Positions 32,185 through 41,774 are shown, counted from the stretch's first letter. The stretch: DNA of 64,000 bases from an uncultured virus (IMG/VR IMGVR_UViG_3300041405_000400) (IMGVR_UViG_3300041405_000400), one strand, 5' to 3'. A program made the numbers and translations. The notes: a model not told the origin generated them from the letters alone.

Positions 32185-32470
32185 TAATGCAGGGAGGTCG
32201 CAGCATCTGGTTAGCTCGTGACCCAAGGGCCAAGGGTTCCCCGATTGATCGTTGTTGCCTGATCACCGCCTCCACAGCCTTGTAGGCAAAGCTGCCGTCC
32301 ACACGTGGGGCCTTTACCTACGGCAAGTCCACGAACTGCTCTTACGCTGCATTGGGAAAGATCGAAGCACTTCAAGGGTGCCTGTCTCGCAGTTACAAGG
32401 GAAATAGCGACCCGTCCCAGGTAGTGCGTCTATCGATGTTTTCCAATGCATCCTCTTTCGAGGAAGTTGG
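32185..32470 (-). ncRNA. two stem-closed structured RNA cassettes
   Basis: AATGCAG/CTGCATT and TGCATTGG/CCAATGCA closing stems, CCTC-GAAA-GAGG hairpin, promoter at ~32494-32523. Confidence 0.55.
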
Positions 32471-33529: not shown

Positions 33530-33814
33530 ATGTACATCAGTGATGTACACCCCGGCAACGAAGGCCTGCTGCCTGAAGCTGAGCAGATGGCGAAGCAATT
33601 CGGCACCTATGATCAATTGGCCAACAGCATTTCGATTGATCAAGCATTCGTTTGGGTCGGGACGATCCTTACAAAGGATGCAGATGCCTGCACAGAAAGC
33701 ACGCATGCCATTGATCAGTTTATCGAGAAGGAAATTAAAACCGGTAAGACGGTATCGCGTGTTGGGAAGCCTGTGATGAAGATTACCAACAAGCCGATTG
33801 CCTGCCCGGCATGA
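33530..33814 (+). CDS. hypothetical protein
   Basis: ORF; start uncertain. Confidence 0.5.
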   Translation: MYISDVHPGNEGLLPEAEQMAKQFGTYDQLANSISIDQAFVWVGTILTKDADACTESTHAIDQFIEKEIKTGKTVSRVGKPVMKITNKPIACPA

Positions 33815-33893
33815 GGCTGATTTGGCGGGGCGGCGTCCCGCCACATTGAGATCTGTGCCAGTCAACTGATTCTGTTTTCTATTCGATGCGACA

Positions 33894-33919
33894 CAAAAAG
33901 CCCGCTCGATGGCGGGCTA
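33894..33919 (-). terminator. terminator of the RNA-cassette operon
   Basis: AGCCCGC-CATCGA-GCGGGCTTTTT. Confidence 0.8.
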
Positions 33920-33940
33920 GATTGCGACAAGCGTTCAGCG

Positions 33941-34201
33941 TCACATATTGAACGCGTCCAGGGCCTCTTTACAGGTCATCTGATAGCCGAGCGAGGCCCC
34001 TTCTGAATCACCTCGCGTTGGTCCTTTGTCAGTCATGACCCAAGGTACTTTATTTTCACCCATCGTAAGCGCTAGACCGTTCTGGTCGCAGGCAATCCAT
34101 TGTGATTGAGGAGAAATCAGGTCGGCTGCGGCATACGCCAATCCACAAAGCCCAAGAGCAATGAGCGCTGCCAAGATGCGCAGCTGAATTCGTATGATCA
34201 T
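33941..34201 (-). CDS. small secreted protein
   Basis: signal peptide (…AYAA). Confidence 0.65.
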   Translation of the reverse strand: MIIRIQLRILAALIALGLCGLAYAAADLISPQSQWIACDQNGLALTMGENKVPWVMTDKGPTRGDSEGASLGYQMTCKEALDAFNM

Positions 34202-34239
34202 GTTTTCACTCGATAGATGTGTACCGGTTCTGCATTGGA

Positions 34240-34366
34240 AACCCATGTGAAGAGACTCGAACTCTCAGATCTCGGCAGTTTGTCCCGACCGTGGATCGCG
34301 CGCCTTCCCGGTTCTGAGTCCCGGTTTAGGTGCCGCCTGCGTCTACCAATTTCGCCACACATGGGT
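34240..34366 (-). ncRNA. Leu-type tRNA scaffold with an expanded central insert
   Basis: D-arm GGCGAAATTGGTAGACGC, T-arm GAGAG-TTCGAGT-CTCT, extended acceptor stem. Confidence 0.6.
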
Positions 34367-35716
34367 TTCCAATACAGCCTCCGAAGAGGATGTTTTGGGC
34401 AGGGCTGGAGGCAAATTCCAGCTTTTCAAAGTGCCTTGGCCACGGGTTACATCACGTATAGCTTAATGAAAAGCAGCCCCGTTATTATGCGACAGCCGTT
34501 GCCGATTGAACGACATTCCTGCTTTTGAATTATACAATACTTTCTTAAAAAATATTATATGCATCGGCAGAATGATTTGGTGATGGATTCGAACCATCGT
34601 CCCGGAATGCCGCGCCGTTGATCAAACGGCCCTGCCAAATCACTCTCCGATGCACTCTCGTGTGAGAATGCGGTGTAACGGGTGACACAAATGACCGGCA
34701 CTGAACTCCGGCTTTAAGGCGCCAAAGCCACCATGCCCTTTCGGGTTTGCTTCCAGGTGGCAATTAAGCACTCAGTTATCTGGGCTGCGCATCAGCCTAC
34801 GCATTCATTCGCATCGGGGTGTGATCTGGCCGGTGCTGGTCTCCGGCATTCGTGGTTATCTGGTGGCCTGCAACCTTCAGGCTCTACGAACTGGGCACAA
34901 CCCCAACGTCAGATGCGCATTACTTGGAATCATCGAACAGCTCCCGGATGTTTGTGGTTACGGGAGTGCCTGTCTGATGTGTTCCCCACGATCAAGCTTG
35001 CTTGCGTATCAGCCTACGCATTCAGATCACACCCCGATGCGCTCTCAGAGAGAGTAATCGGGCAGTTAGCGACAGGCTGTCGTGCAGTGATTCTGTGTCC
35101 GAAGGAGGTCGGACCGGCATGCAAGGCCATTACGCCATTCACCCACCTATCGGGCTCTGTCACCCCTTCATAACGCGTTCGGGGTTTTACGCGGCGATCC
35201 AGACTTACTTTTATATGGGGTTCCAGGGTCGCATCTCGCCCATTTCGTTTTGGCTTTCGCCTAATTCTTGCGGTGCATCTGAAGCTGTATTGGAATGTCG
35301 GTCCACACCATTTTCTGCAATCAACGTCCGGGTGTTCGCCACAATCCGATTGCTCTGGAGATGCTTTTTTCATGACCCGCCGACATTCCGATACAGCCTC
35401 TTTCGAGGTGATCGGGCCGTCTTTCCGGCTGTCACAGAACCAACGATTGAGCCGGTAGGTCTGAACGGCTATCCCTTTATGTGCTTGGGAGTCCAGCAGG
35501 CGGCTTGATCCCCGCTCAGGATTCTTTGTGACACTCTCGCGTGAGAGTGCTGTATTACGGTTGACGCAGATGGCCGGTACTGAACTCCGGCTTGGCGCTC
35601 TCCTGGGCGTGTTAGCGTATTTCACCTCGCAAGCGGTCTCTCACCGCCTCTTCCCTTTCGGGTTGCCCCAGCCAGTTGCGCATCAGCCTGCGCATTCATC
35701 AACGTCGGTGTTGCTA

Positions 35717-35803
35717 TGGAGCGGGTACATGGATTCGAACCATCAGCCGCTAAGCCGCCTTTATCCACTAGTAGGATTGCCCCCAATGGGCTCGGTTCCC
35801 CGC
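35717..35803 (-). ncRNA. aberrant tRNA-like RNA with CUA at the anticodon position
   Basis: GCGGG/CCCGC-T-CCA acceptor, ATGG-TTCGAAT-CCAT T-arm, ATCC-TACTAGT-GGAT arm. Confidence 0.6.
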
Positions 35804-35808
35804 AAATC

Positions 35809-35878
35809 TGGCGCCCCTACGTGGAGTTGAACCACGCGACCGACGCATGATCAGTGCGATCGTCAATCCCTCCAGGGC
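35809..35878 (-). ncRNA. D-arm-less tRNA-like RNA with a GAU loop
   Basis: GCCCT/GGGGC-G-CCA, CGTGG-TTCAACT-CCACG, CGCA-CTGATCA-TGCG. Confidence 0.6.
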
Positions 35879-36209
35879 AAATTCTAATGCAAATGGCCGG
35901 TACTGAACTCCGGCTCAGCCAATCTTTTCTATTAGGCAGTTTCAACGGCATGCCGCCTCATATACCTGTAAACCCTTTTGGCCCATCCAGTTTCTCAGTG
36001 CGCCTCAGTCGGCGCCAACATCTGCATTGGTAGGTTCACCGGCTAGGACGCATTCGGCTGGTACAAGCCTCGAAAATATTGCCCAAACGGGGGACATAAA
36101 ACCGGTCACGCCTCCCGTCCTCTGACCGGATTGGGCCGCTCTAAACGGCTTCCGGTGAACCTCCAATACAGCCTCTTTCGAGGCTAAGCCAACCAGCGGT
36201 TTCTCACGC

Positions 36210-36455
36210 TTAGTCGTGCCGATTGATCTTAAGTGTCCATTCGCGGTCGCCATCCACTGACAGCGTGACCTCATGGTCTTTCTTCAATGCCCTGACAATG
36301 ACGCTTTCTGTGGCCAGGATGGGCTCTTTATCTTCATCTTCGCCGATTTCCGCAGCCAAATACAGCTTTTCTGCTGCCACTTCCTTAACCAGCGCTTTGC
36401 GGGTCGTATAGACAGTGATCTCGTAGGCTTCGTTAACGGTTGTAAAAATCGTCAT
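36210..36455 (-). CDS. small acidic hypothetical protein
   Basis: ATG at 36455 with GGA RBS. Confidence 0.65.
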   Translation of the reverse strand: MTIFTTVNEAYEITVYTTRKALVKEVAAEKLYLAAEIGEDEDKEPILATESVIVRALKKDHEVTLSVDGDREWTLKINRHD

Positions 36456-36530
36456 CAGAGATTCCGTAATCTGTTTTGTGTGCAATAGCACAATGCATTG
36501 GGGTGAAATCTGACCGGATGTGATCCCGGC

Positions 36531-36600
36531 ATGTGTGGGTGGACTCGAACCACCGACGCGCCTTTTGCGAGGCCGCTCTACCAACTGAAGCTACACACTA
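36531..36600 (-). ncRNA. pseudo-tRNA nested in a cassette
   Basis: TAGCTTCAGTTGGTAGAGC D-arm, GGTGG-TTCGAGT-CCACC T-arm, shortened anticodon arm, no CCA. Confidence 0.6.
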
Positions 36601-36852
36601 CGCTATCTGTTCACCGGGCCTAGGAATCCCGTCACCGTCAAGCCTATTGAGTCACAAACTCACTTTCAGATTCCACCCCAATGCATCCCCAAAGGGGCAG
36701 TGGGCTTAAAATTGCATTAGTGGATGCTCCGATAACTACTTGCCATGCTTCGAATATTATCCGAATCAGGGAATTGAACCCCGGACACACCCCATTTGAT
36801 GCTTCCCTAACGCAGTTATGTTTACAAGTTCATATTCTGCTCTTGTCGGACT

Positions 36853-36881
36853 ATTTTAGCGAGGTCTCATACATGTGTCAA
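36853..36881 (-). promoter_or_regulatory. sigma70 promoter of the cassette operon
   Basis: TTGACA-17 nt-TAAAAT. Confidence 0.8.
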
Positions 36882-36926
36882 TGCTATTTTCAGATTTTTT
36901 TGAATCAAACGGCATCTGGTGTTGTA

Positions 36927-37244
36927 TTAGTGGATGGCAAACACATTACTTCGCTGGATAATCAGAATATCACCGGCTTCAAGGCCATGGTTTTCGGTAT
37001 TTTTAAGCACATTGGCGACTGAACCGAACATGTGAAGTGGATCTACCGCCAGGAGATCAACCCAGAACGCTTCACTACCTTTTTTGCCGTATTCACCCAC
37101 ACCCACTTTCACATAATCGCCAACCTCTAGCGAATGGAGTTCAGTTGCACTGGGAAGTGTTATTGTGAAGCCATGTTTGTCCGCGATTTCTTGTGCGTTA
37201 TGGAGATCTGCATGTTTTACTGAATTTGGGTCAAATGTGGTCAT
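36927..37244 (-). CDS. hypothetical protein (DUF2314-like)
   Basis: GDYVKV...EAFWV...GSVAN. Confidence 0.65.
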   Translation of the reverse strand: MTTFDPNSVKHADLHNAQEIADKHGFTITLPSATELHSLEVGDYVKVGVGEYGKKGSEAFWVDLLAVDPLHMFGSVANVLKNTENHGLEAGDILIIQRSNVFAIH

Positions 37245-37535
37245 GGTTCGCTCTAATAATGTGAGTGGTCGTTAGCGGCAAGTGGTTTGAATTTCATATA
37301 TTATCAAATTTGCGCTTCAGGCGCCTCTTTCTTGCGTCGGAAGATTTGCTTTTTTGCCTAAGTACGCACCGTATTTAATGTTGTCAACAGGGGGCTGAAG
37401 GGTGGACTTACCACTGGTCGGCAAACATGCACTAGATATTTCTGTTGCAGTGACAAGAAAATGTAAGAGCGAGACTGTTTGGCATCTGTTGCAATTATTT
37501 ATTATGACTTTCTTGAAAAGACAAAAACCATCCAC

Positions 37536-39100
37536 TGAGTCTCCCTGTGGTATATCTAGGGATTCTGAAGGTGAATCATCCGGGGTTTCAGGTGAGTGCC
37601 TGCTGTGACCGAATGCAATCCTTCTTTGACGTACCATCCGCTCTGCCGGTAGATACCGGGGCTGTGACTTACGCCACAACGCTTGCAGATTGATCTTTCC
37701 ATAGTCCGGTACGTCGCAGCACAGACTCCTGATCTGCCAGCATCTGAGCGATACTGGAGGGGCTATGGGTGTTTCCATCAGTGCAACACGCCAACAGTGC
37801 CGAATAAACGTCCCTTTGAATCAGCCCGTTGCCATCACCCAGCGCGTGCCAACGCAAGGACAGGGGTTTCTTCGTGTAGGAATCGGTGCAGTGATCGTAC
37901 TGCGACATTTTGAGCTTCCAGGTATTCAGTTCAATCATCTTGCCGCCAGCACTTTCAGCCTTGCGTTTCAGATGTTGAACAAAATAGCCCGGTGCCCTGT
38001 TTTTCACTGACTTTCCAAAAGACTTCTGAAAAGCCCGGTAGGACAATTTTTCGAGGTGCCAAATGTTGGCTTGACTGAGCAAGCGATTTACTAGTTGGCC
38101 GTGCTCATTCCGGCGTCGAGCCTGCAAAGTGCGTTCGATGTTTGCGATCCGCTGCCGCAGTGTGATCAATCGGCTTGATTGATTCGTGATACGTTGACCG
38201 CTGATCCAGAGGCCTTTCTTATCAAAGCACTGTGGATTGGTGGAACGCACGGAGCGGTCTGCCTTGCGCTGCAACCGCCGCAGAGTTTTGGCGCAAGGCA
38301 CAACGCCAGGACAAAAAGTTTGCAGTGTGGCACCTGACTCGGTGAAGCTGGCCACTGTCGAAGGTCCGATATCCAGTCCGCCGTGGGCGTTGACCGATAG
38401 ACTGGTGGGAGGGGCTTGACCTTCGAGGATCAGCTGGACGAAATAGCGAGTTTTACCCTTAATATTGCGCCATAGAACCCGCGAGAATTTCACTCGGTTT
38501 TTCAATGCATCATCGAGGAACGGGTCTTTACCCGGTGTAGGCAGAATCACAGGCATCAACAAGCCAGCCCATAGCAAGCAGGCGGTTTCGGACTGATAGC
38601 GAATGGCTGAAGCAGCACTTTTACCTTCTAGCGAATGCAGGGGTCGTTTTAGGCCTTTGAAGCGAGGTAGGCTGCGCTTCTTGTAGGAGTGCTGTTCAAG
38701 AGCAAAGAACACACGCTTCGCCAGTGTCTGCGGCTCATGAGCACCGAGGTGGTCGCGCCAAAGTCGGTTCTTAAGGCGTGTGCCAAAGGCAGAAAGGGCG
38801 TACTCAGAAAAACCGTAAGTTTCACGCAGCTGTTTATAGCCAGATCTTTTTGTCTGCACATCTTTTCTGTCGCGAAGGGTTGCCCATAGTGGATCACTAC
38901 GCATGGCAGAAAGTCTTCGGATACCCTCTGCAAGCAGGGCGTTGTAGAGCCTCTTGCCTGCCTCAAATCGCTTACGCATCACTGCCGAGTCGCGACCTTT
39001 TGTCACGAGCGGTAGCGTTATAATGAAACTGGAAGTTGAGGCTTTTTTCATCCGGTTTTACACTTTCAGCTCGACGAAGAAGAGTACAAACAAAGGCTGT
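37536..39100 (-). mobile_element. IS200/IS605-family tnpB-only (IS1341-like) element; boundaries approximate
   Basis: tnpB followed by a structured tail ending TCCCT...AGGGAGACTCA; no tnpA. Confidence 0.65.
37669..39051 (-). CDS. tnpB: RNA-guided endonuclease TnpB
   Basis: RuvC motifs GLDIGP, HLEKL and QRDVYSA; LYNALL N-terminal helix. Confidence 0.88.
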   Translation of the reverse strand: MKKASTSSFIITLPLVTKGRDSAVMRKRFEAGKRLYNALLAEGIRRLSAMRSDPLWATLRDRKDVQTKRSGYKQLRETYGFSEYALSAFGTRLKNRLWRDHLGAHEPQTLAKRVFFALEQHSYKKRSLPRFKGLKRPLHSLEGKSAASAIRYQSETACLLWAGLLMPVILPTPGKDPFLDDALKNRVKFSRVLWRNIKGKTRYFVQLILEGQAPPTSLSVNAHGGLDIGPSTVASFTESGATLQTFCPGVVPCAKTLRRLQRKADRSVRSTNPQCFDKKGLWISGQRITNQSSRLITLRQRIANIERTLQARRRNEHGQLVNRLLSQANIWHLEKLSYRAFQKSFGKSVKNRAPGYFVQHLKRKAESAGGKMIELNTWKLKMSQYDHCTDSYTKKPLSLRWHALGDGNGLIQRDVYSALLACCTDGNTHSPSSIAQMLADQESVLRRTGLWKDQSASVVA

Positions 39101-40846: not shown

Positions 40847-40875
40847 ATAATAATCATCTAAGCATCATGTGTCAA
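40847..40875 (-). promoter_or_regulatory. sigma70 promoter of the Ser/Asn/Cys tRNA operon
   Basis: TTGACA-17-TATTAT. Confidence 0.75.
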
Positions 40876-40892
40876 TAAGAATCTCAACTATT

Positions 40893-41774
40893 TTAATCCT
40901 TTAGAAACATTCCGCAGCTCGCTTTTACATCAAAGCCGACTTTTGGCACGATTCTCCAACTTTCTGCCTTGATCAGCGAGCGCAGGATCTCGGTATTGCG
41001 CTGAATGACCTCTTCGCACGGCTCCTTTCCATATTTTGCTGAATACGGGTTATAGCGAACGATGTTCAGGTTCACCTTCAGGTCGCGCTCGTTGATCGCA
41101 TTGGCAATGGCGACCATATCAGCTTCAGAGTCATTCTCGCCTTCGATGAATGCGAAATGAATCTTTGGCACTTTATGACTGAAATCTTGCCATGCCTTGA
41201 GCATATCGAGGCCATGTTCAGCCGTGTGCGCTCGGGCCAGCCAACGCTTACGGAACGATGGGTTCATGCTGTAGATCGAGTAATAGATCTCTGGATGCAC
41301 CTCTGGAAAAATGTCTTCCAGTCGCAAGTCACCCATCGAGGTTGGAAAAATAGACGACACCAGGAATTTGGATTCCAGGCCATAGGTTTGCGACTTCGCT
41401 GCCAGTCCATTGAGCAATTGCGCGCTGTCACTCAGCAGCAAAGGGTTGTTCAGTGGCTCCCCCCTGGCCATGAAGTTCCAGTGGATGAGCTTGGCCGGAG
41501 CTTGGGTGTCGTAATGCTCCAAGATGCGTTCGGCCTGCTGCATGAAGTCGTCCATTTCAGCATTGTCGAATTGATTCTGGCCGGTCGATGTCAGGTGGCA
41601 AAATCGGCACGCTTGATCGCAGCCAGATTGCGAGGACAGGTAGCCAATGATGTACTCAGGCACCCGACGAACGTAACGGTTTTCATAGCGACCGACATTC
41701 GGCGCAGGGTACTCAAAGTTGACCGACTGATCCTGCTGACTGAAGTGGGCTTTGAAAATGATGTTCTGGCTCAT
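40893..41774 (-). CDS. RlmN/Cfr-like radical SAM protein
   Basis: SSQSGCDQACRFC, MARGEP, GENDS, DVKASCG. Confidence 0.88.
   Translation of the reverse strand: MSQNIIFKAHFSQQDQSVNFEYPAPNVGRYENRYVRRVPEYIIGYLSSQSGCDQACRFCHLTSTGQNQFDNAEMDDFMQQAERILEHYDTQAPAKLIHWNFMARGEPLNNPLLLSDSAQLLNGLAAKSQTYGLESKFLVSSIFPTSMGDLRLEDIFPEVHPEIYYSIYSMNPSFRKRWLARAHTAEHGLDMLKAWQDFSHKVPKIHFAFIEGENDSEADMVAIANAINERDLKVNLNIVRYNPYSAKYGKEPCEEVIQRNTEILRSLIKAESWRIVPKVGFDVKASCGMFLKD

What the first reader, a model, noticed from the sequence alone, without database searches (positions are those of the whole stretch)
34399..36670. Six copies of a tRNA-shaped scaffold with co-varying kissing loops and exchangeable inserts
Seen on the minus strand: closing stem, 3-nt linker, short stem with loop 1, variable cargo, 5-bp stem (GCCGG/CCGGY) with 8-9 nt loop 2, closing stem. 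Loop pairs: 34690-34809 GCTGA/TCAGT; 34826-35025 GCTG/CAGC; 35569-35700 GCTGA/TCAGT; 35893-36021 ACTGA/TCAGT; 34399-34522 GGCAA/TTGCC; 36509-36670 TGTGA/TCACA. Loop sequences change while complementarity is kept, which is covariation within one locus. Inference: a Watson-Crick kiss replaces the D-loop/T-loop elbow, giving a natural 'tRNA scaffold' (possible RNase P substrate) that stabilises different cargo RNAs placed where the anticodon arm would be. Possible roles are decoys, antisense RNAs or anti-defence RNAs.
Basis: partly seen in the sequence, partly recalled or inferred. Interest (0 to 1): 0.88.

Follow-up and report, generated by a model that had tools for sequence, protein, structure and literature searches.

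The report
Phage tRNA-shaped kissing-loop RNA scaffold
The six repeats are real copies of a small folded RNA frame, locked by two loops that pair with each other and carrying a different insert in each copy; the frame is a widespread, largely undescribed RNA family of phages that infect proteobacteria.

Summary
On the minus strand of 34399-36684 lie six units built as: closing helix, 3-nt linker (mostly AAU), hairpin 1, variable insert, hairpin 2 stacked directly on the closing helix.

- A covariance model from homologues in other phages finds four units at E 1e-10 to 1e-17 (one was not in the seed).
- U1 is too divergent for the model. It keeps the architecture, and its insert is homologous to one sitting in a canonical scaffold elsewhere (L220).
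- U6 is only probable (E 0.24).

The loop-loop kiss is strongly supported. When I selected public sequences only for a changed loop-1 base, all 8 that carried the scaffold had the compensating loop-2 change. On 102 sequences all four helices covary, and G.U outnumbers A.C 55 to 1, so the fold is selected on the RNA strand.

The family is very large: phages and prophages of alpha-, beta- and gamma-proteobacteria, and 121-187 cultured phage records, all unannotated. It has no Rfam family of its own. Rfam STnc100 (with the PasD sRNAs) is a divergent branch with the same architecture.

Inserts range from 19 to 266 nt, are swapped at orthologous loci, and are sometimes tRNA-like.

Function is inferred, not shown. 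The most likely role is a self-folding processing and stability frame for diverse cargo RNAs. A tRNA-mimic decoy is the main rival.

The parts
36495..36684 (-). U1, a divergent unit. Closing helix 36666-36684 / 36495-36513 (19/19 pairs); linker AAG 36663-36665; hairpin 1 TGAG-TTTGTGA-CTCA 36648-36662; insert 36530-36647 (118 nt, holds a tRNA-like element with D arm and T arm); hairpin 2 CCGG-GATCACAT-CCGG 36514-36529; kiss TGTGA/TCACA.
   Evidence: R1 does not find it. Its insert is homologous to the insert of the canonical unit L220:160-326 (blastn 81% over 68 nt; alignment). Relaxed ARAGORN calls an odd tRNA at 36528-36600.
35884..36030 (-). U2, a canonical unit. Closing 36019-36030 / 35884-35895 (11/12); linker TTG; hairpin 1 GCGCC-GACTGA-GGCGC 36000-36015; insert 35915-35999 (85 nt); hairpin 2 GCCGG-AGTTCAGTA-CCGGC 35896-35914; kiss ACTGA/TCAGT.
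   Evidence: R1 56.8 bits, E 3e-14 (in the seed).
35563..35706 (-). U3, a canonical unit. Closing 35697-35706 / 35563-35572 (9/10); linker AAT; hairpin 1 GCGCA-GGCTGA-TGCGC 35678-35693; insert 35592-35677 (86 nt); hairpin 2 35573-35591; kiss GCTGA/TCAGT.
   Evidence: R1 65.5 bits, E 9e-17 (in the seed).
34811..35040 (-). U4, a canonical unit with a long closing helix. Closing 35023-35040 / 34811-34828 (18/18); linker AAT; hairpin 1 GCGTA-GGCTGA-TACGC 35004-35019; insert 34848-35003 (156 nt); hairpin 2 GCCGG-AGACCAGCA-CCGGC 34829-34847; kiss GCTG/CAGC (4 bp).
   Evidence: R1 45.1 bits, E 8e-11, not in the seed. The whole unit including its insert is 75% identical over 200 nt to L295. The insert is replaced in a relative, with a joint at 34838/35003 and 58 other letters between.
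34684..34815 (-). U5, a canonical unit. Closing 34806-34815 / 34684-34693 (10/10); linker AAT; hairpin 1 GCGTA-GGCTGA-TGCGC 34787-34802; insert 34713-34786 (74 nt); hairpin 2 GCCGG-AGTTCAGTG-CCGGT 34694-34712; kiss GCTGA/TCAGT. Its 5' closing strand overlaps U4's 3' closing strand by 5 nt.
   Evidence: R1 60.4 bits, E 3e-15 (in the seed).
34399..34522 (-). U6, a probable divergent unit. Closing GCAGG/CCTGC (5/5); linker AAT; hairpin 1 GTCG-(12-nt loop ending GGCAA)-CGGC 34495-34514; insert 34423-34494 (72 nt); hairpin 2 GCTGGA-ATTTGCC-TCCAGC 34404-34422; kiss GGCAA/TTGCC. An extended -10 box (TGTATAAT) lies just upstream at about 34530-34545.
   Evidence: R1 10.4 bits, E 0.24. At background level for my loose descriptor. 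Conserved as a discrete module with unlike flanks in a relative (34401-34539). The promoter is read by eye.
36853..36881 (-). Sigma-70-like promoter TTGACA-17-TAAAAT, at the head of the non-coding cluster.
   Evidence: 11 of 12 matches. A consensus match only.
33899..33918 (-). Intrinsic-terminator-like hairpin followed by a T run, the likely end of the roughly 3-kb transcription unit.
   Evidence: Also seen in the weak Rfam leader matches.

Best explanation
The six elements are copies (four canonical, one divergent but corroborated, one probable) of a modular non-coding RNA that is very common in phages and prophages of proteobacteria.

Fold. The RNA forms a multi-way junction. A closing helix made by its two ends stacks directly on hairpin 2. 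A short AAU-type linker leads to hairpin 1. The last five nucleotides of loop 1 pair with five nucleotides of loop 2, leaving one spacer before the stem. This Watson-Crick kiss locks the two hairpins together the way the D and T loops lock the tRNA elbow. The remaining arm of the junction is a hypervariable insert.

Proposed function (inferred). The scaffold is a self-folding, nuclease-resistant frame with defined ends. It lets a phage express and release many different small structured RNAs from inside long transcripts. In this window that transcript is a roughly 3-kb non-coding cluster that also holds odd tRNA-like genes. In other phages it is a tRNA cluster, the pL leader between nutL and N, the late leader between Q and the lysis genes, or a stand-alone promoter-to-terminator gene. 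The long closing helices here (10-19 bp, extended by the 5-bp hairpin 2) would be cut by a double-strand or tRNA-type endonuclease such as RNase III or RNase P. The insert would be the effector.

Shown: the fold, the covariation, strand specificity, the distribution and the exchange of inserts. Inferred: processing, stabilisation, and what the inserts do.
For: Structure:
- On a MAFFT alignment of 36 units, 98.3% of cells are paired, 17 of 22 pairs change on both sides, and 0 of 500 shuffles reach this. Slid controls give 28-48% paired.
- On 102 model-aligned units, 98.8% are paired and 20 of 22 pairs change on both sides. The kiss helix is 97.6% paired (GC 77, GU 16, AU 5, UA 1; CG 96, UA 2, GC 1; UA 91, CG 7).
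- Unbiased test: a scan for loop-1 position 4 not T returned 16 loci. Eight carry the scaffold, and 8 of 8 have a compensating loop 2 (GTCGA/TCGAC three times; GCCGA/TCGGC twice, plus one 4-bp version; TGCGA/TCGCA; GGCCGG/TCGGCT). The other 8 are chance hits without a scaffold.
- RNA strand: 55 G.U-type cells against 1 A.C-type cell.

Family size:
- 41 of 44 viral loci found with a loop-2 pattern carry the full scaffold.
- 107 of 120 viral loci found with a hairpin-1 pattern passed my strict script, 97 of them with a clear kiss.
- 106 of 120 genome loci passed the same script.
- 187 and 121 cultured phage records match.
- The 5' module occurs in 480 of 5426 E. coli genomes.
- 12 of 121 genomes of one Pseudomonas genus sample match.

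Frame rather than fixed RNA:
- Inserts are 19-266 nt, median 78. A 66-nt unit has only a 12-nt insert.
- L003, L015 and L026 share both flanks but carry unrelated inserts.
- U4's insert is swapped in a relative, with the break at the hairpin-1 boundary.

Inserts are selected:
- U1's insert is conserved in L220 although the scaffold sequences differ completely.
- U4's insert is conserved in L295.

Transcription context:
- Units lie on the same strand as the flanking operons and tRNA genes.
- Promoters lie directly in front of some units (L002, L024) and terminators directly behind others (L001, L055, L074, L090, L101, L121), read by eye.
- A tRNA gene follows 4-10 nt after the unit in D6, L021 and L220.
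- Related STnc100/PasD RNAs are expressed. PasD is Hfq-dependent and contacts many mRNAs (passages of PMC8550237; PMC12370729).
Against: - No experiment or read-level data here shows processing, stability or any activity of an insert. The RNA-library contigs of two studies that cover the units do not prove transcription.
- The scaffold modules are conserved in sequence, not only in shape, across alpha-, beta- and gamma-proteobacterial hosts. A 66-nt unit has almost no insert. Both points suggest the scaffold may have a function of its own.
- Stand-alone units seem to start at the closing helix (promoter spacing read by eye), so they need no 5' processing.
- No insert matched a known RNA family, so what the inserts do is unknown.
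- U6 is weakly supported, and R1 does not recognise U1.
Confidence: 0.5

Rival explanations
1. The scaffold itself is the effector. It would be a tRNA-shaped mimic that binds or titrates a conserved tRNA-handling or anti-phage factor (a processing enzyme, a modification enzyme, or a tRNA-targeting defence nuclease). The insert would be a tolerated variable arm.
For: - A 21-nt 5' module is identical in hosts from alpha-, beta- and gamma-proteobacteria.
- Loop and stem sequences are far more conserved than pairing alone requires.
- A minimal 66-nt unit has a 12-nt insert.
- The scaffold model gives its best non-family score in the window to a true tRNA-Cys (12.6 bits, E 0.055, full length).
- Units sit among tRNA genes.
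- Some inserts are themselves tRNA-elbow-like: 6 of 206 inserts against 1.07 in shuffles.
Against: - U1 keeps its insert but has a completely different scaffold sequence, so shape seems to matter more than sequence.
- Inserts are conserved over long distances.
- No conserved neighbouring protein gene points to a partner.
- tRNA models do not recognise the scaffold.
- There is no anticodon arm and no CCA end.
Confidence: 0.25
2. It is a cis-acting leader element of phage operons. It would stabilise the 5' end, or uncouple upstream control sites from downstream genes by cleavage, as the RNase III hairpin of the lambda N leader does (recalled). It would not be a carrier of trans-acting RNAs.
For: - In L005 and L038 the unit lies between the cI-type repressor gene and the N gene (Pfam N_peptide). 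In L005 it lies downstream of a boxA/boxB-like nutL, read by eye.
- In L003 and L033 it lies between antiterminator Q (PF06323) and the lysis genes.
Against: - Many units are stand-alone, with a terminator directly behind them.
- Six lie in one non-coding cluster here, and others lie inside tRNA clusters.
- The hypervariable but conserved inserts are not explained.
- HK022, whose put RNAs occupy such leader positions (recalled), shows no recognisable scaffold in the 14 kb I fetched, by my loose descriptor only.
Confidence: 0.1
3. It is a DNA-level element: a miniature transposon, a recombination site, or a folded single-strand DNA site like an integron attC. Its inverted repeats would merely look like RNA helices.
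For: - Units are gained, lost and re-filled at exact boundaries in relatives.
- The conserved ends flank a variable interior.
- Units occur in many genomic contexts.
- A gene that PHROGs labels as a transposase lies 1 kb upstream.
Against: - G.U-type pairs outnumber A.C-type pairs 55 to 1, so only one strand folds.
- A loop-loop helix covaries.
- Closing-helix sequences vary freely, unlike transposase-bound ends.
- Orientation always follows local transcription.
- The relatives STnc100 and PasD are detected as RNAs.
Confidence: 0.03
4. The units are decayed tRNA pseudogenes or chance hairpin clusters in a tRNA-rich region.
For: The region holds several non-canonical tRNA-like sequences.
Against: - E-values of 1e-10 to 1e-17 against a model built mainly from unrelated phages.
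- Hundreds of homologues with compensatory changes.
- No similarity to tRNA models.
Confidence: 0.02

Closest known systems
STnc100 (Rfam RF02076) and the PasD1/PasD2 sRNAs of lambdoid prophages
   Same: - Positions 31-147 of the Rfam model have the same architecture: 7-bp closing helix caUGGUG/CACCAug, AAU linker, 5-bp hairpin 1 with a 6-nt loop, an insert, and a 5-bp hairpin 2 abutting the closing helix.
- My scaffold model hits the STnc100-like locus of phage D6 full length (24.2 bits, E 1.7e-5), where RF02076 scores 39.6 bits.
- Both sit in prophage late regions near Q and the lysis genes (preprint 10.64898/2026.05.13.724894, sections and passages read).
   Different: - RF02076 does not match any window unit at E up to 10, nor the canonical units in the 9 loci tested at E up to 1.
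- R1 finds nothing in E. coli E2348/69, which has 7 RF02076 matches.
- STnc100 copies have a 5-nt loop 2 (AGGCA) and no clear 5-bp kiss, by eye.
- The passages I read describe Hfq-dependent base-pairing sRNAs. They do not mention a tRNA-like junction, a loop-loop kiss or swappable inserts. I could not see the figures or supplements.
tRNA (Rfam RF00005)
   Same: - Four-arm topology.
- The closing helix (usually 7-10 bp) stacks on a 5-bp hairpin, as acceptor plus T arm do.
- A short linker after the closing helix.
- Two loops that dock on each other.
- Location among tRNA genes.
- The scaffold model weakly aligns a true tRNA.
   Different: - No match to tRNA models or ARAGORN.
- Loops of 6 and 8-9 nt joined by a 4-5 bp Watson-Crick helix, instead of the D/T-loop tertiary contacts.
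- No anticodon arm and no CCA end.
Engineered tRNA scaffolds for recombinant RNA expression, and viral tRNA-linked small RNAs such as the tRNA-miRNA units of murine gammaherpesvirus 68
   Same: The idea is the same: a cargo RNA placed in a tRNA-shaped frame that folds on its own, resists nucleases, and can be cut out by tRNA-processing enzymes.
   Different: Those use genuine tRNA sequences. Here the frame is not a tRNA, and processing has not been shown.
C4 antisense RNA of P1/P7 and CI RNA of P4 (Rfam C4 family; RNase P processing recalled)
   Same: Small phage RNAs with a closing helix and two hairpins, released from longer transcripts.
   Different: No Rfam C4 match at any unit. In those RNAs the loops pair with target mRNA, not with each other (recalled).
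Riboswitch junctions locked by kissing loops (purine and lysine riboswitches; recalled)
   Same: A multi-helix junction whose two hairpin loops pair to fix the global fold.
   Different: There is no sign of a ligand pocket. The junction segment here is a hypervariable insert. No Rfam riboswitch matched.

Membership tests
Kissing-loop scaffold family defined here (model R1, alignments A2 and A4) | Significant full-length match to the covariance model. | tested here: met
   U3 65.5, U5 60.4 and U2 56.8 bits (all three in the seed); U4 45.1 bits, E 8e-11 (not in the seed). Not met for U1 (no match). Inconclusive for U6 (10.4 bits, E 0.24).
Kissing-loop scaffold family defined here (model R1, alignments A2 and A4) | Hairpin 2 abuts the 3' closing strand; a 3-nt linker sits between the 5' closing strand and hairpin 1. 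| tested here: met
   All six units. In U1 one base can belong either to hairpin 2 or to the closing helix.
Kissing-loop scaffold family defined here (model R1, alignments A2 and A4) | The 3' end of loop 1 is complementary (4-5 bp) to loop 2, with 0-1 nt left before the stem. | tested here: met
   5 bp in U1, U2, U3, U5 and U6; 4 bp in U4. The family shows the same geometry.
STnc100 (Rfam RF02076) | Match to the Rfam model at or above its gathering score of 47 bits. | tested here: not met
   No RF02076 match in 33800-37400 at E up to 10, and none at gathering score in the whole window.
STnc100 (Rfam RF02076) | Core architecture: closing helix, AAU linker, hairpin 1, insert, hairpin 2 on the closing helix. 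| tested here: met
   Consensus structure of model positions 31-147 compared with the unit anatomy. R1 hits the D6 STnc100-like locus.
tRNA (Rfam RF00005 / ARAGORN) | Cloverleaf with D arm, anticodon arm and T-loop, recognised by tRNA models. | tested here: not met
   The six ARAGORN and Rfam tRNAs of the window all lie elsewhere. No tRNA hit on the units at E up to 10 or on the minimal unit L161. Only relaxed ARAGORN settings call the tRNA-like insert of U1.
C4 antisense RNA (Rfam) | Match to the Rfam model. | tested here: not met
   No match at E up to 10 in the region, nor at E up to 1 in 9 homologous loci.
RNase P / RNase III substrate | Cleavage at the closing helix by the enzyme. | not testable with these tools
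   Geometry only: closing helix plus hairpin 2 gives about 12-15 bp in most of the family and 15-24 bp in this window.

The most novel reading that the evidence does not exclude
Phages of proteobacteria share a natural cassette system for RNA. It is a tRNA-shaped frame whose fold is locked by a short kissing helix that can be re-coded. Unrelated effector RNAs (base-pairing sRNAs, tRNA-elbow mimics, others still unknown) are swapped into it by recombination between the two conserved scaffold halves. Host tRNA- or dsRNA-processing enzymes then release each cassette from long transcripts. It would be the natural counterpart of engineered tRNA scaffolds, and an RNA analogue of integron cassettes. 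The different kiss codes within one operon (GCUGA/UCAGU, UGUGA/UCACA, GGCAA/UUGCC) might keep neighbouring units from mis-pairing.
Probability: 0.35. Interest if true: 0.85.

Novelty: new variant of a known kind. Interest (0 to 1): 0.72.

Why it matters
- A structured RNA found in hundreds of cultured phages has gone unannotated. It occurs in virulent T1-like and large Klebsiella phages, lambdoid and Stx-converting phages, and the P1-like phage D6. It is also in about a tenth of sampled E. coli and Pseudomonas genomes, where 'hypothetical protein' calls sometimes overlap it.
- The fold, with a covarying pseudoknot, gives a concrete handle on the poorly understood STnc100/PasD sRNAs. It links them to a much larger family.
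- If the frame works as a processing and stability chassis, it explains how phages pack many small RNAs into tRNA clusters and operon leaders. It would also offer a compact natural scaffold (66 nt without insert) for RNA expression.
- If the frame is instead a tRNA decoy, it bears on the contest between phages and tRNA-targeting defences.
- A bacterial CRISPR spacer against the conserved 5' module shows that hosts use this conserved sequence as a target.

Tried and rejected
- Rfam at gathering score on the window, and at permissive E-values on the region, 9 + 20 homologous loci and the minimal unit. No family covers the canonical scaffold. Only weak, non-significant matches appeared (tRNA-Sec 17.6 bits on a neighbouring tRNA-like; rydB 13.7 bits on hairpin 2).
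- HK022 immunity region as a test of 'is this put RNA?'. No scaffold by my loose descriptor. I did not run R1 there.
- A loose structural descriptor of my own. Its background is too high (about 15 chance hits per window), so it cannot validate U6, and its fixed 3-nt linker missed U1, U3 and U4.
- L018/L019 as relatives of this phage. They share only the U4-type scaffold ends and are not syntenic.
- R1 on E. coli E2348/69. No hit under the strict filters, so the link to PasD rests on RF02076 and on reading the sequences. I could not tell which of the 7 loci are PasD1 and PasD2.
- Prevalence in a class-wide sample: 1 of 151 genomes, the centre itself. Only 25 candidates per genome were scored and many genomes are small, so this is a weak lower bound.
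- Neighbouring genes in 15 viral and 10 Pseudomonas loci. No protein is consistently linked.
- Expression. RNA-library contigs of two studies cover parts of the cluster, but these are contigs, DNA carry-over is not excluded, and I laid no silent control stretch. Parts without cover mean nothing.
- Earlier findings of this scan: nothing on record.
- Literature searches: by motif sequence; by tRNA-like/prophage/RNase P terms; by kissing/covariation terms; for STnc100, PasD and Proteo-phage-1. I found no description of this scaffold or its kiss. Subscription papers, figures and bioRxiv supplements were not visible to me.
- Pfam on the 460-aa ORF that PHROGs labels as a transposase, and on the small ORFs of the cluster: no hits.
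Full report
**What is in the window**

I read the minus strand of 34200-36900. It is an almost entirely non-coding cluster. A strong sigma-70-like promoter lies at 36881-36853 (11 of 12 matches) and an intrinsic-terminator-like hairpin at 33918-33899.

The window as a whole looks like a large phage. It has RIIA/RIIB homologues, six tRNA genes on the same strand, and many ORFs without a family. No whole genome is held for it. The DNA is found in rhizosphere and soil metagenome runs. Its few blastn matches are to Pseudomonas phages.

**The six units**

With their full closing helices they span:
- U1: 36495-36684
- U2: 35884-36030
- U3: 35563-35706
- U4: 34811-35040
- U5: 34684-34815
- U6: 34399-34522

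Each unit consists of:
- a closing helix (19/19, 11/12, 9/10, 18/18, 10/10 and 5/5 pairs)
- a 3-nt linker (AAT in four units, AAG in U1, TTG in U2)
- hairpin 1
- an insert of 72-156 nt
- hairpin 2 abutting the 3' closing strand

RNAfold recovers this layout for U3, U4, U5 and U6 without constraints. They are 5 bp in five units and 4 bp in U4.

**Is it more than chance?**

I fetched homologues from elsewhere.
- A scan of viral contigs with the hairpin-2 sequence returned 44 loci, and 41 carry the whole scaffold (29 distinct). Of the other three, two are identical coding-like sequences and one is cut by the contig end.
Of these, 107 passed my strict script and 97 have a clear kiss. Most of the 13 failures show the 3' module with one flawed pair.

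From 36 units, 33 of them from other phages, I built covariance model R1. On the window it finds U3, U5 and U2 (seed members). It also finds U4, which was not in the seed, at 45.1 bits, E 8e-11. With filters off, U6 reaches only 10.4 bits (E 0.24) and U1 is not found.

U1 is nevertheless a member.
- It keeps the GCCGG...CCGG hairpin 2 on a 19-bp closing helix.
- It keeps the family's loop geometry: the kiss lies at the 3' end of loop 1, with one spacer nucleotide after it in loop 2.
- Its 118-nt insert is homologous to the insert of a canonical unit in another genome (L220; 81% over 68 nt by blastn, aligned across the insert).

U6 remains 'probable'. Its 5-bp closing stem is at the background level of a loose descriptor. 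In its favour are the AAT linker and an own extended -10 box (read by eye). It also recurs as a discrete module with unlike flanks in a relative.

**The kiss**

- On the MAFFT alignment A2 (36 sequences), the four helices including the pseudoknot are 98.3% paired. 17 of 22 pairs change on both sides. None of 500 shuffles reaches any measure, and sliding the partner by 1-3 columns drops pairing to 28-48%.
- As a test not conditioned on loop 2, I scanned viral contigs for units whose loop-1 position 4 is not T. Sixteen loci came back. Eight are chance matches without a scaffold. All eight with a scaffold have the matching change in loop 2: GTCGA/TCGAC (three, one being the Shigella phage DS8 sequence), GCCGA/TCGGC (two, plus one with 4 bp), TGCGA/TCGCA and GGCCGG/TCGGCT (DS8 first seen).
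- On a model-fitted alignment of 102 units from 96 sources, 98.8% of cells pair and 20 of 22 pairs show double changes. The kiss helix is 97.6% paired with double changes at three of its five pairs. The fifth (A-U) pair is absent in 12 sequences, so the core is 4 bp. That alignment leans towards the model's structure, and I had added the eight loop variants on purpose. Those variants were chosen by loop 1 alone.
- Wobble pairs are strand-specific: 55 G.U-type cells against 1 A.C-type cell. The fold is therefore selected on this strand, which means an RNA, not a DNA palindrome.

**How widespread it is**

Record titles span Enterobacterales, Pseudomonas, Halomonas, Xanthomonadales, many beta-proteobacteria, several alpha-proteobacteria and a few odd MAGs. 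106 of 120 pass the strict script, and most of the rest show the scaffold with one flaw.
- In cultured phages, 187 records match a 181-nt query. 121 match the 66-nt minimal unit, 78 of them over at least 80% of it. They include T1-like coliphages, 157-160-kb Klebsiella phages, lambdoid phages (HK633, mEp460), Stx2-converting phages, Pseudomonas and Aeromonas phages, and the P1-like phage D6. The annotation under the match is 'none' or 'hypothetical protein'.
- The 5' module is in 480 of 5426 complete E. coli genomes, unannotated.
- 12 of 121 genomes of one Pseudomonas genus sample have a unit. A class-wide sample gave 1 of 151, with low sensitivity.

**Anatomy across the family**

- Closing helices are mostly 7-10 bp (92 of 106).
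- Hairpin 2 is 5 bp. It is mostly GCCGG/CCGGC, with compensated variants.
- Loop 2 is mostly AGAUCAGCA.
- Loop 1 is GGCUGA.
- Inserts run from 19 to 266 nt, median 78. One unit is 66 nt long with a 12-nt insert.

Pseudomonas prophages and this window share a sub-type. It has a roughly 19-bp closing helix of conserved sequence, preceded by a small CCUC-GNAA-GAGG hairpin.

**Inserts are exchangeable and selected**

- L003, L015 and L026 share both flanks yet hold unrelated inserts.
- In a relative of this phage, U4's insert is replaced. The joint is at 34838/35003 with 58 other letters between. Position 35003 is the last insert base next to hairpin 1.
- Another relative joins U6 to U5 (34520 to 34688). 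It drops the tRNA-like element between them, and the breaks lie inside the two closing strands.
- Some inserts are conserved over long distances: U1 with L220 and U4 with L295.
- 6 of 206 distinct inserts contain a T-arm-like hairpin, against 1.07 in shuffles. U1, L220 and L121 carry tRNA-like inserts.
- No insert matched an Rfam family.

**Context**

- Units always lie in the direction of local transcription.
- In L003 and L033 the unit sits between antiterminator Q and the lysis genes.
- In L005 and L038 it sits between a cI-type repressor and an N-type antiterminator. In L005 it is just downstream of a boxA/boxB-like nutL (read by eye; consensus recalled).
- In D6 it sits among tRNA genes, 4 nt before tRNA-Ser.
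- In L021 and L220 it sits just before a tRNA.
- Some units have a promoter directly upstream (L002, L024) or a terminator directly downstream (L001, L055, L074, L090, L101, L121), read by eye.
- No protein gene is consistently adjacent.

**Relation to what is known**

Rfam 15 has no family for the canonical scaffold.

Positions 31-147 of RF02076 (STnc100) have the same architecture. R1 and RF02076 both hit the same second locus in phage D6 (24.2 and 39.6 bits). STnc100 is therefore a divergent branch. In E. coli E2348/69, RF02076 finds 7 loci. They keep the closing helix, AAU linker and both hairpins, but have a 5-nt loop 2 (AGGCA) and no clear 5-bp kiss. R1 misses them.

From the literature I read passages only:
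- STnc100 is expressed, is found in vesicles, and lies downstream of stx2 in Stx2 phages. Its function is unknown (PMC12370729).
- PasD1 and PasD2 are Hfq-dependent and contact many mRNAs (PMC8550237).
- PasD and STnc100 are structurally homologous (bioRxiv 10.64898/2026.05.13.724894: outline, section 17 and passages).

None of these passages mentions a tRNA-like junction, a loop-loop kiss or swappable inserts. I could not see figures or supplements. Searches by motif and by concept found nothing else.

The scaffold is not a tRNA. ARAGORN and the Rfam tRNA model are silent on it. R1 does give its best non-family score in the window to a genuine tRNA-Cys, which reflects the shared shape.

**How it most likely works**

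Shown: a strand-specific RNA fold with four covarying helices, a frame that tolerates and exchanges inserts, and wide horizontal spread.

Inferred: the frame gives each insert an autonomous fold and protected ends. Its closing helix, coaxial with hairpin 2, serves as a processing site. This would let the units be cut out of long precursors such as the roughly 3-kb cluster here. With 15-24 stacked base pairs in this window, RNase III is as plausible as RNase P.

The main rival is that the frame itself is a tRNA-shaped decoy or ligand. Favouring it are the extreme sequence conservation of the two modules across host classes and the near insert-less unit. Against it is U1, which kept its insert while its scaffold sequence changed completely. 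I put the chassis model at about 0.5 and the decoy at about 0.25. A purely cis leader role, a DNA-level element and tRNA decay are all well below that.

**Verdict**

The functional interpretation is open.

The finding is a large, unannotated extension of a barely characterised sRNA family, with a newly demonstrated pseudoknotted, tRNA-shaped fold and cassette-like inserts. It is a new variant of a known kind, of high interest to RNA and phage biologists.

Noticed in passing
window 34241-34365 (-), closing helix out to about 34228-34386: A tRNA-like gene enclosed by a roughly 19-bp closing helix. ARAGORN calls it only when introns are allowed (tRNA-Cys(ACA) with a 47-nt insert at position 35). 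The insert holds a CCGG-GACTCAGAA-CCGG hairpin that resembles hairpin 2 of the scaffold.
   Followed up: partly
window 35715-35880 (-), 34574-34641 (-), about 36760-36850 (-): Several non-canonical tRNA-like sequences with good T arms. Two of them end in an encoded CCA, but standard tRNA finders do not call them. Rfam tRNA-Sec scores 17.6 bits (E 6.3) on 34574-34641. Relaxed ARAGORN calls 35721-35801 as 'tRNA-Pyl (CUA)', which would be a suppressor-like anticodon if real.
   Followed up: partly
window 32442-32463, 34368-34389, 35387-35408, 36162-36183 (+ coordinates; read on the minus strand): Four copies of a small hairpin CCTC-GAAA-GAGG followed by CTG(T/C)AT(T/C)GGA. This opens a 17-19-bp closing helix around a second kind of module: 34228-34386, about 35290-35410 and about 36040-36185. 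The same signature precedes scaffold units in Pseudomonas prophages (L251, L318). TGCATTGG/CCAATGCA recurs at module borders. One of these modules (36037-36125) is absent in two relatives.
   Followed up: partly
L232 (Halomonas olivaria chromosome, genome-contig hit): Here the conserved 5' module of the scaffold is a spacer inside a CRISPR array (repeat GTTCCCCGCAGGCGCGGGGATGAACCG seen three times). A host therefore targets this conserved phage sequence.
   Followed up: no
window 37669-39051 (-): A 460-aa ORF 1 kb upstream of the cluster matches PHROG phrog_506, labelled 'transposase' (E 8e-31), but no Pfam family at E 0.001.
   Followed up: partly
L203:93-172: Rfam Proteo-phage-1 RNA (RF03044, 74.7 bits) lies about 120 nt upstream of a scaffold unit in a Pseudomonas prophage. 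Two phage RNA motifs may travel together.
   Followed up: no
L161 hairpin 2; Rfam RF00118: The rydB sRNA model aligns its hairpin GCCGGAGAUAAGCGCCGG to hairpin 2 of the scaffold (13.7 bits, E 0.89, not significant). rydB could be a remnant of a scaffold 3' half.
   Followed up: no
L045 (Shigella phage DS8) 2430-3140; L011 and L003 upstream of the unit: In lambdoid late leaders the unit is preceded by one or more long hairpins (GGTAAGAGCATTG...CAGTGCTCTTACC). Their 3' strand overlaps the 5' closing strand of the scaffold (GTTGTG is shared), so two alternative pairings are possible. The shared strand contains a boxA-like GCTCTTA (consensus recalled).
   Followed up: no
window 36872-36900 and 40866-40894: The promoter region of the cluster (CATGTGTCAATGC...) is repeated 4 kb away, in front of the tRNA-Ser region (72% identity over 29 nt). 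This suggests a shared promoter type for the RNA clusters.
   Followed up: no
window 35034-35416: This stretch between U3 and U4 is 93% identical to Pseudomonas phage Aurca01 (unannotated there). It overlaps a possible small ORF starting at 35373. Whether it is coding or RNA is not resolved.
   Followed up: no
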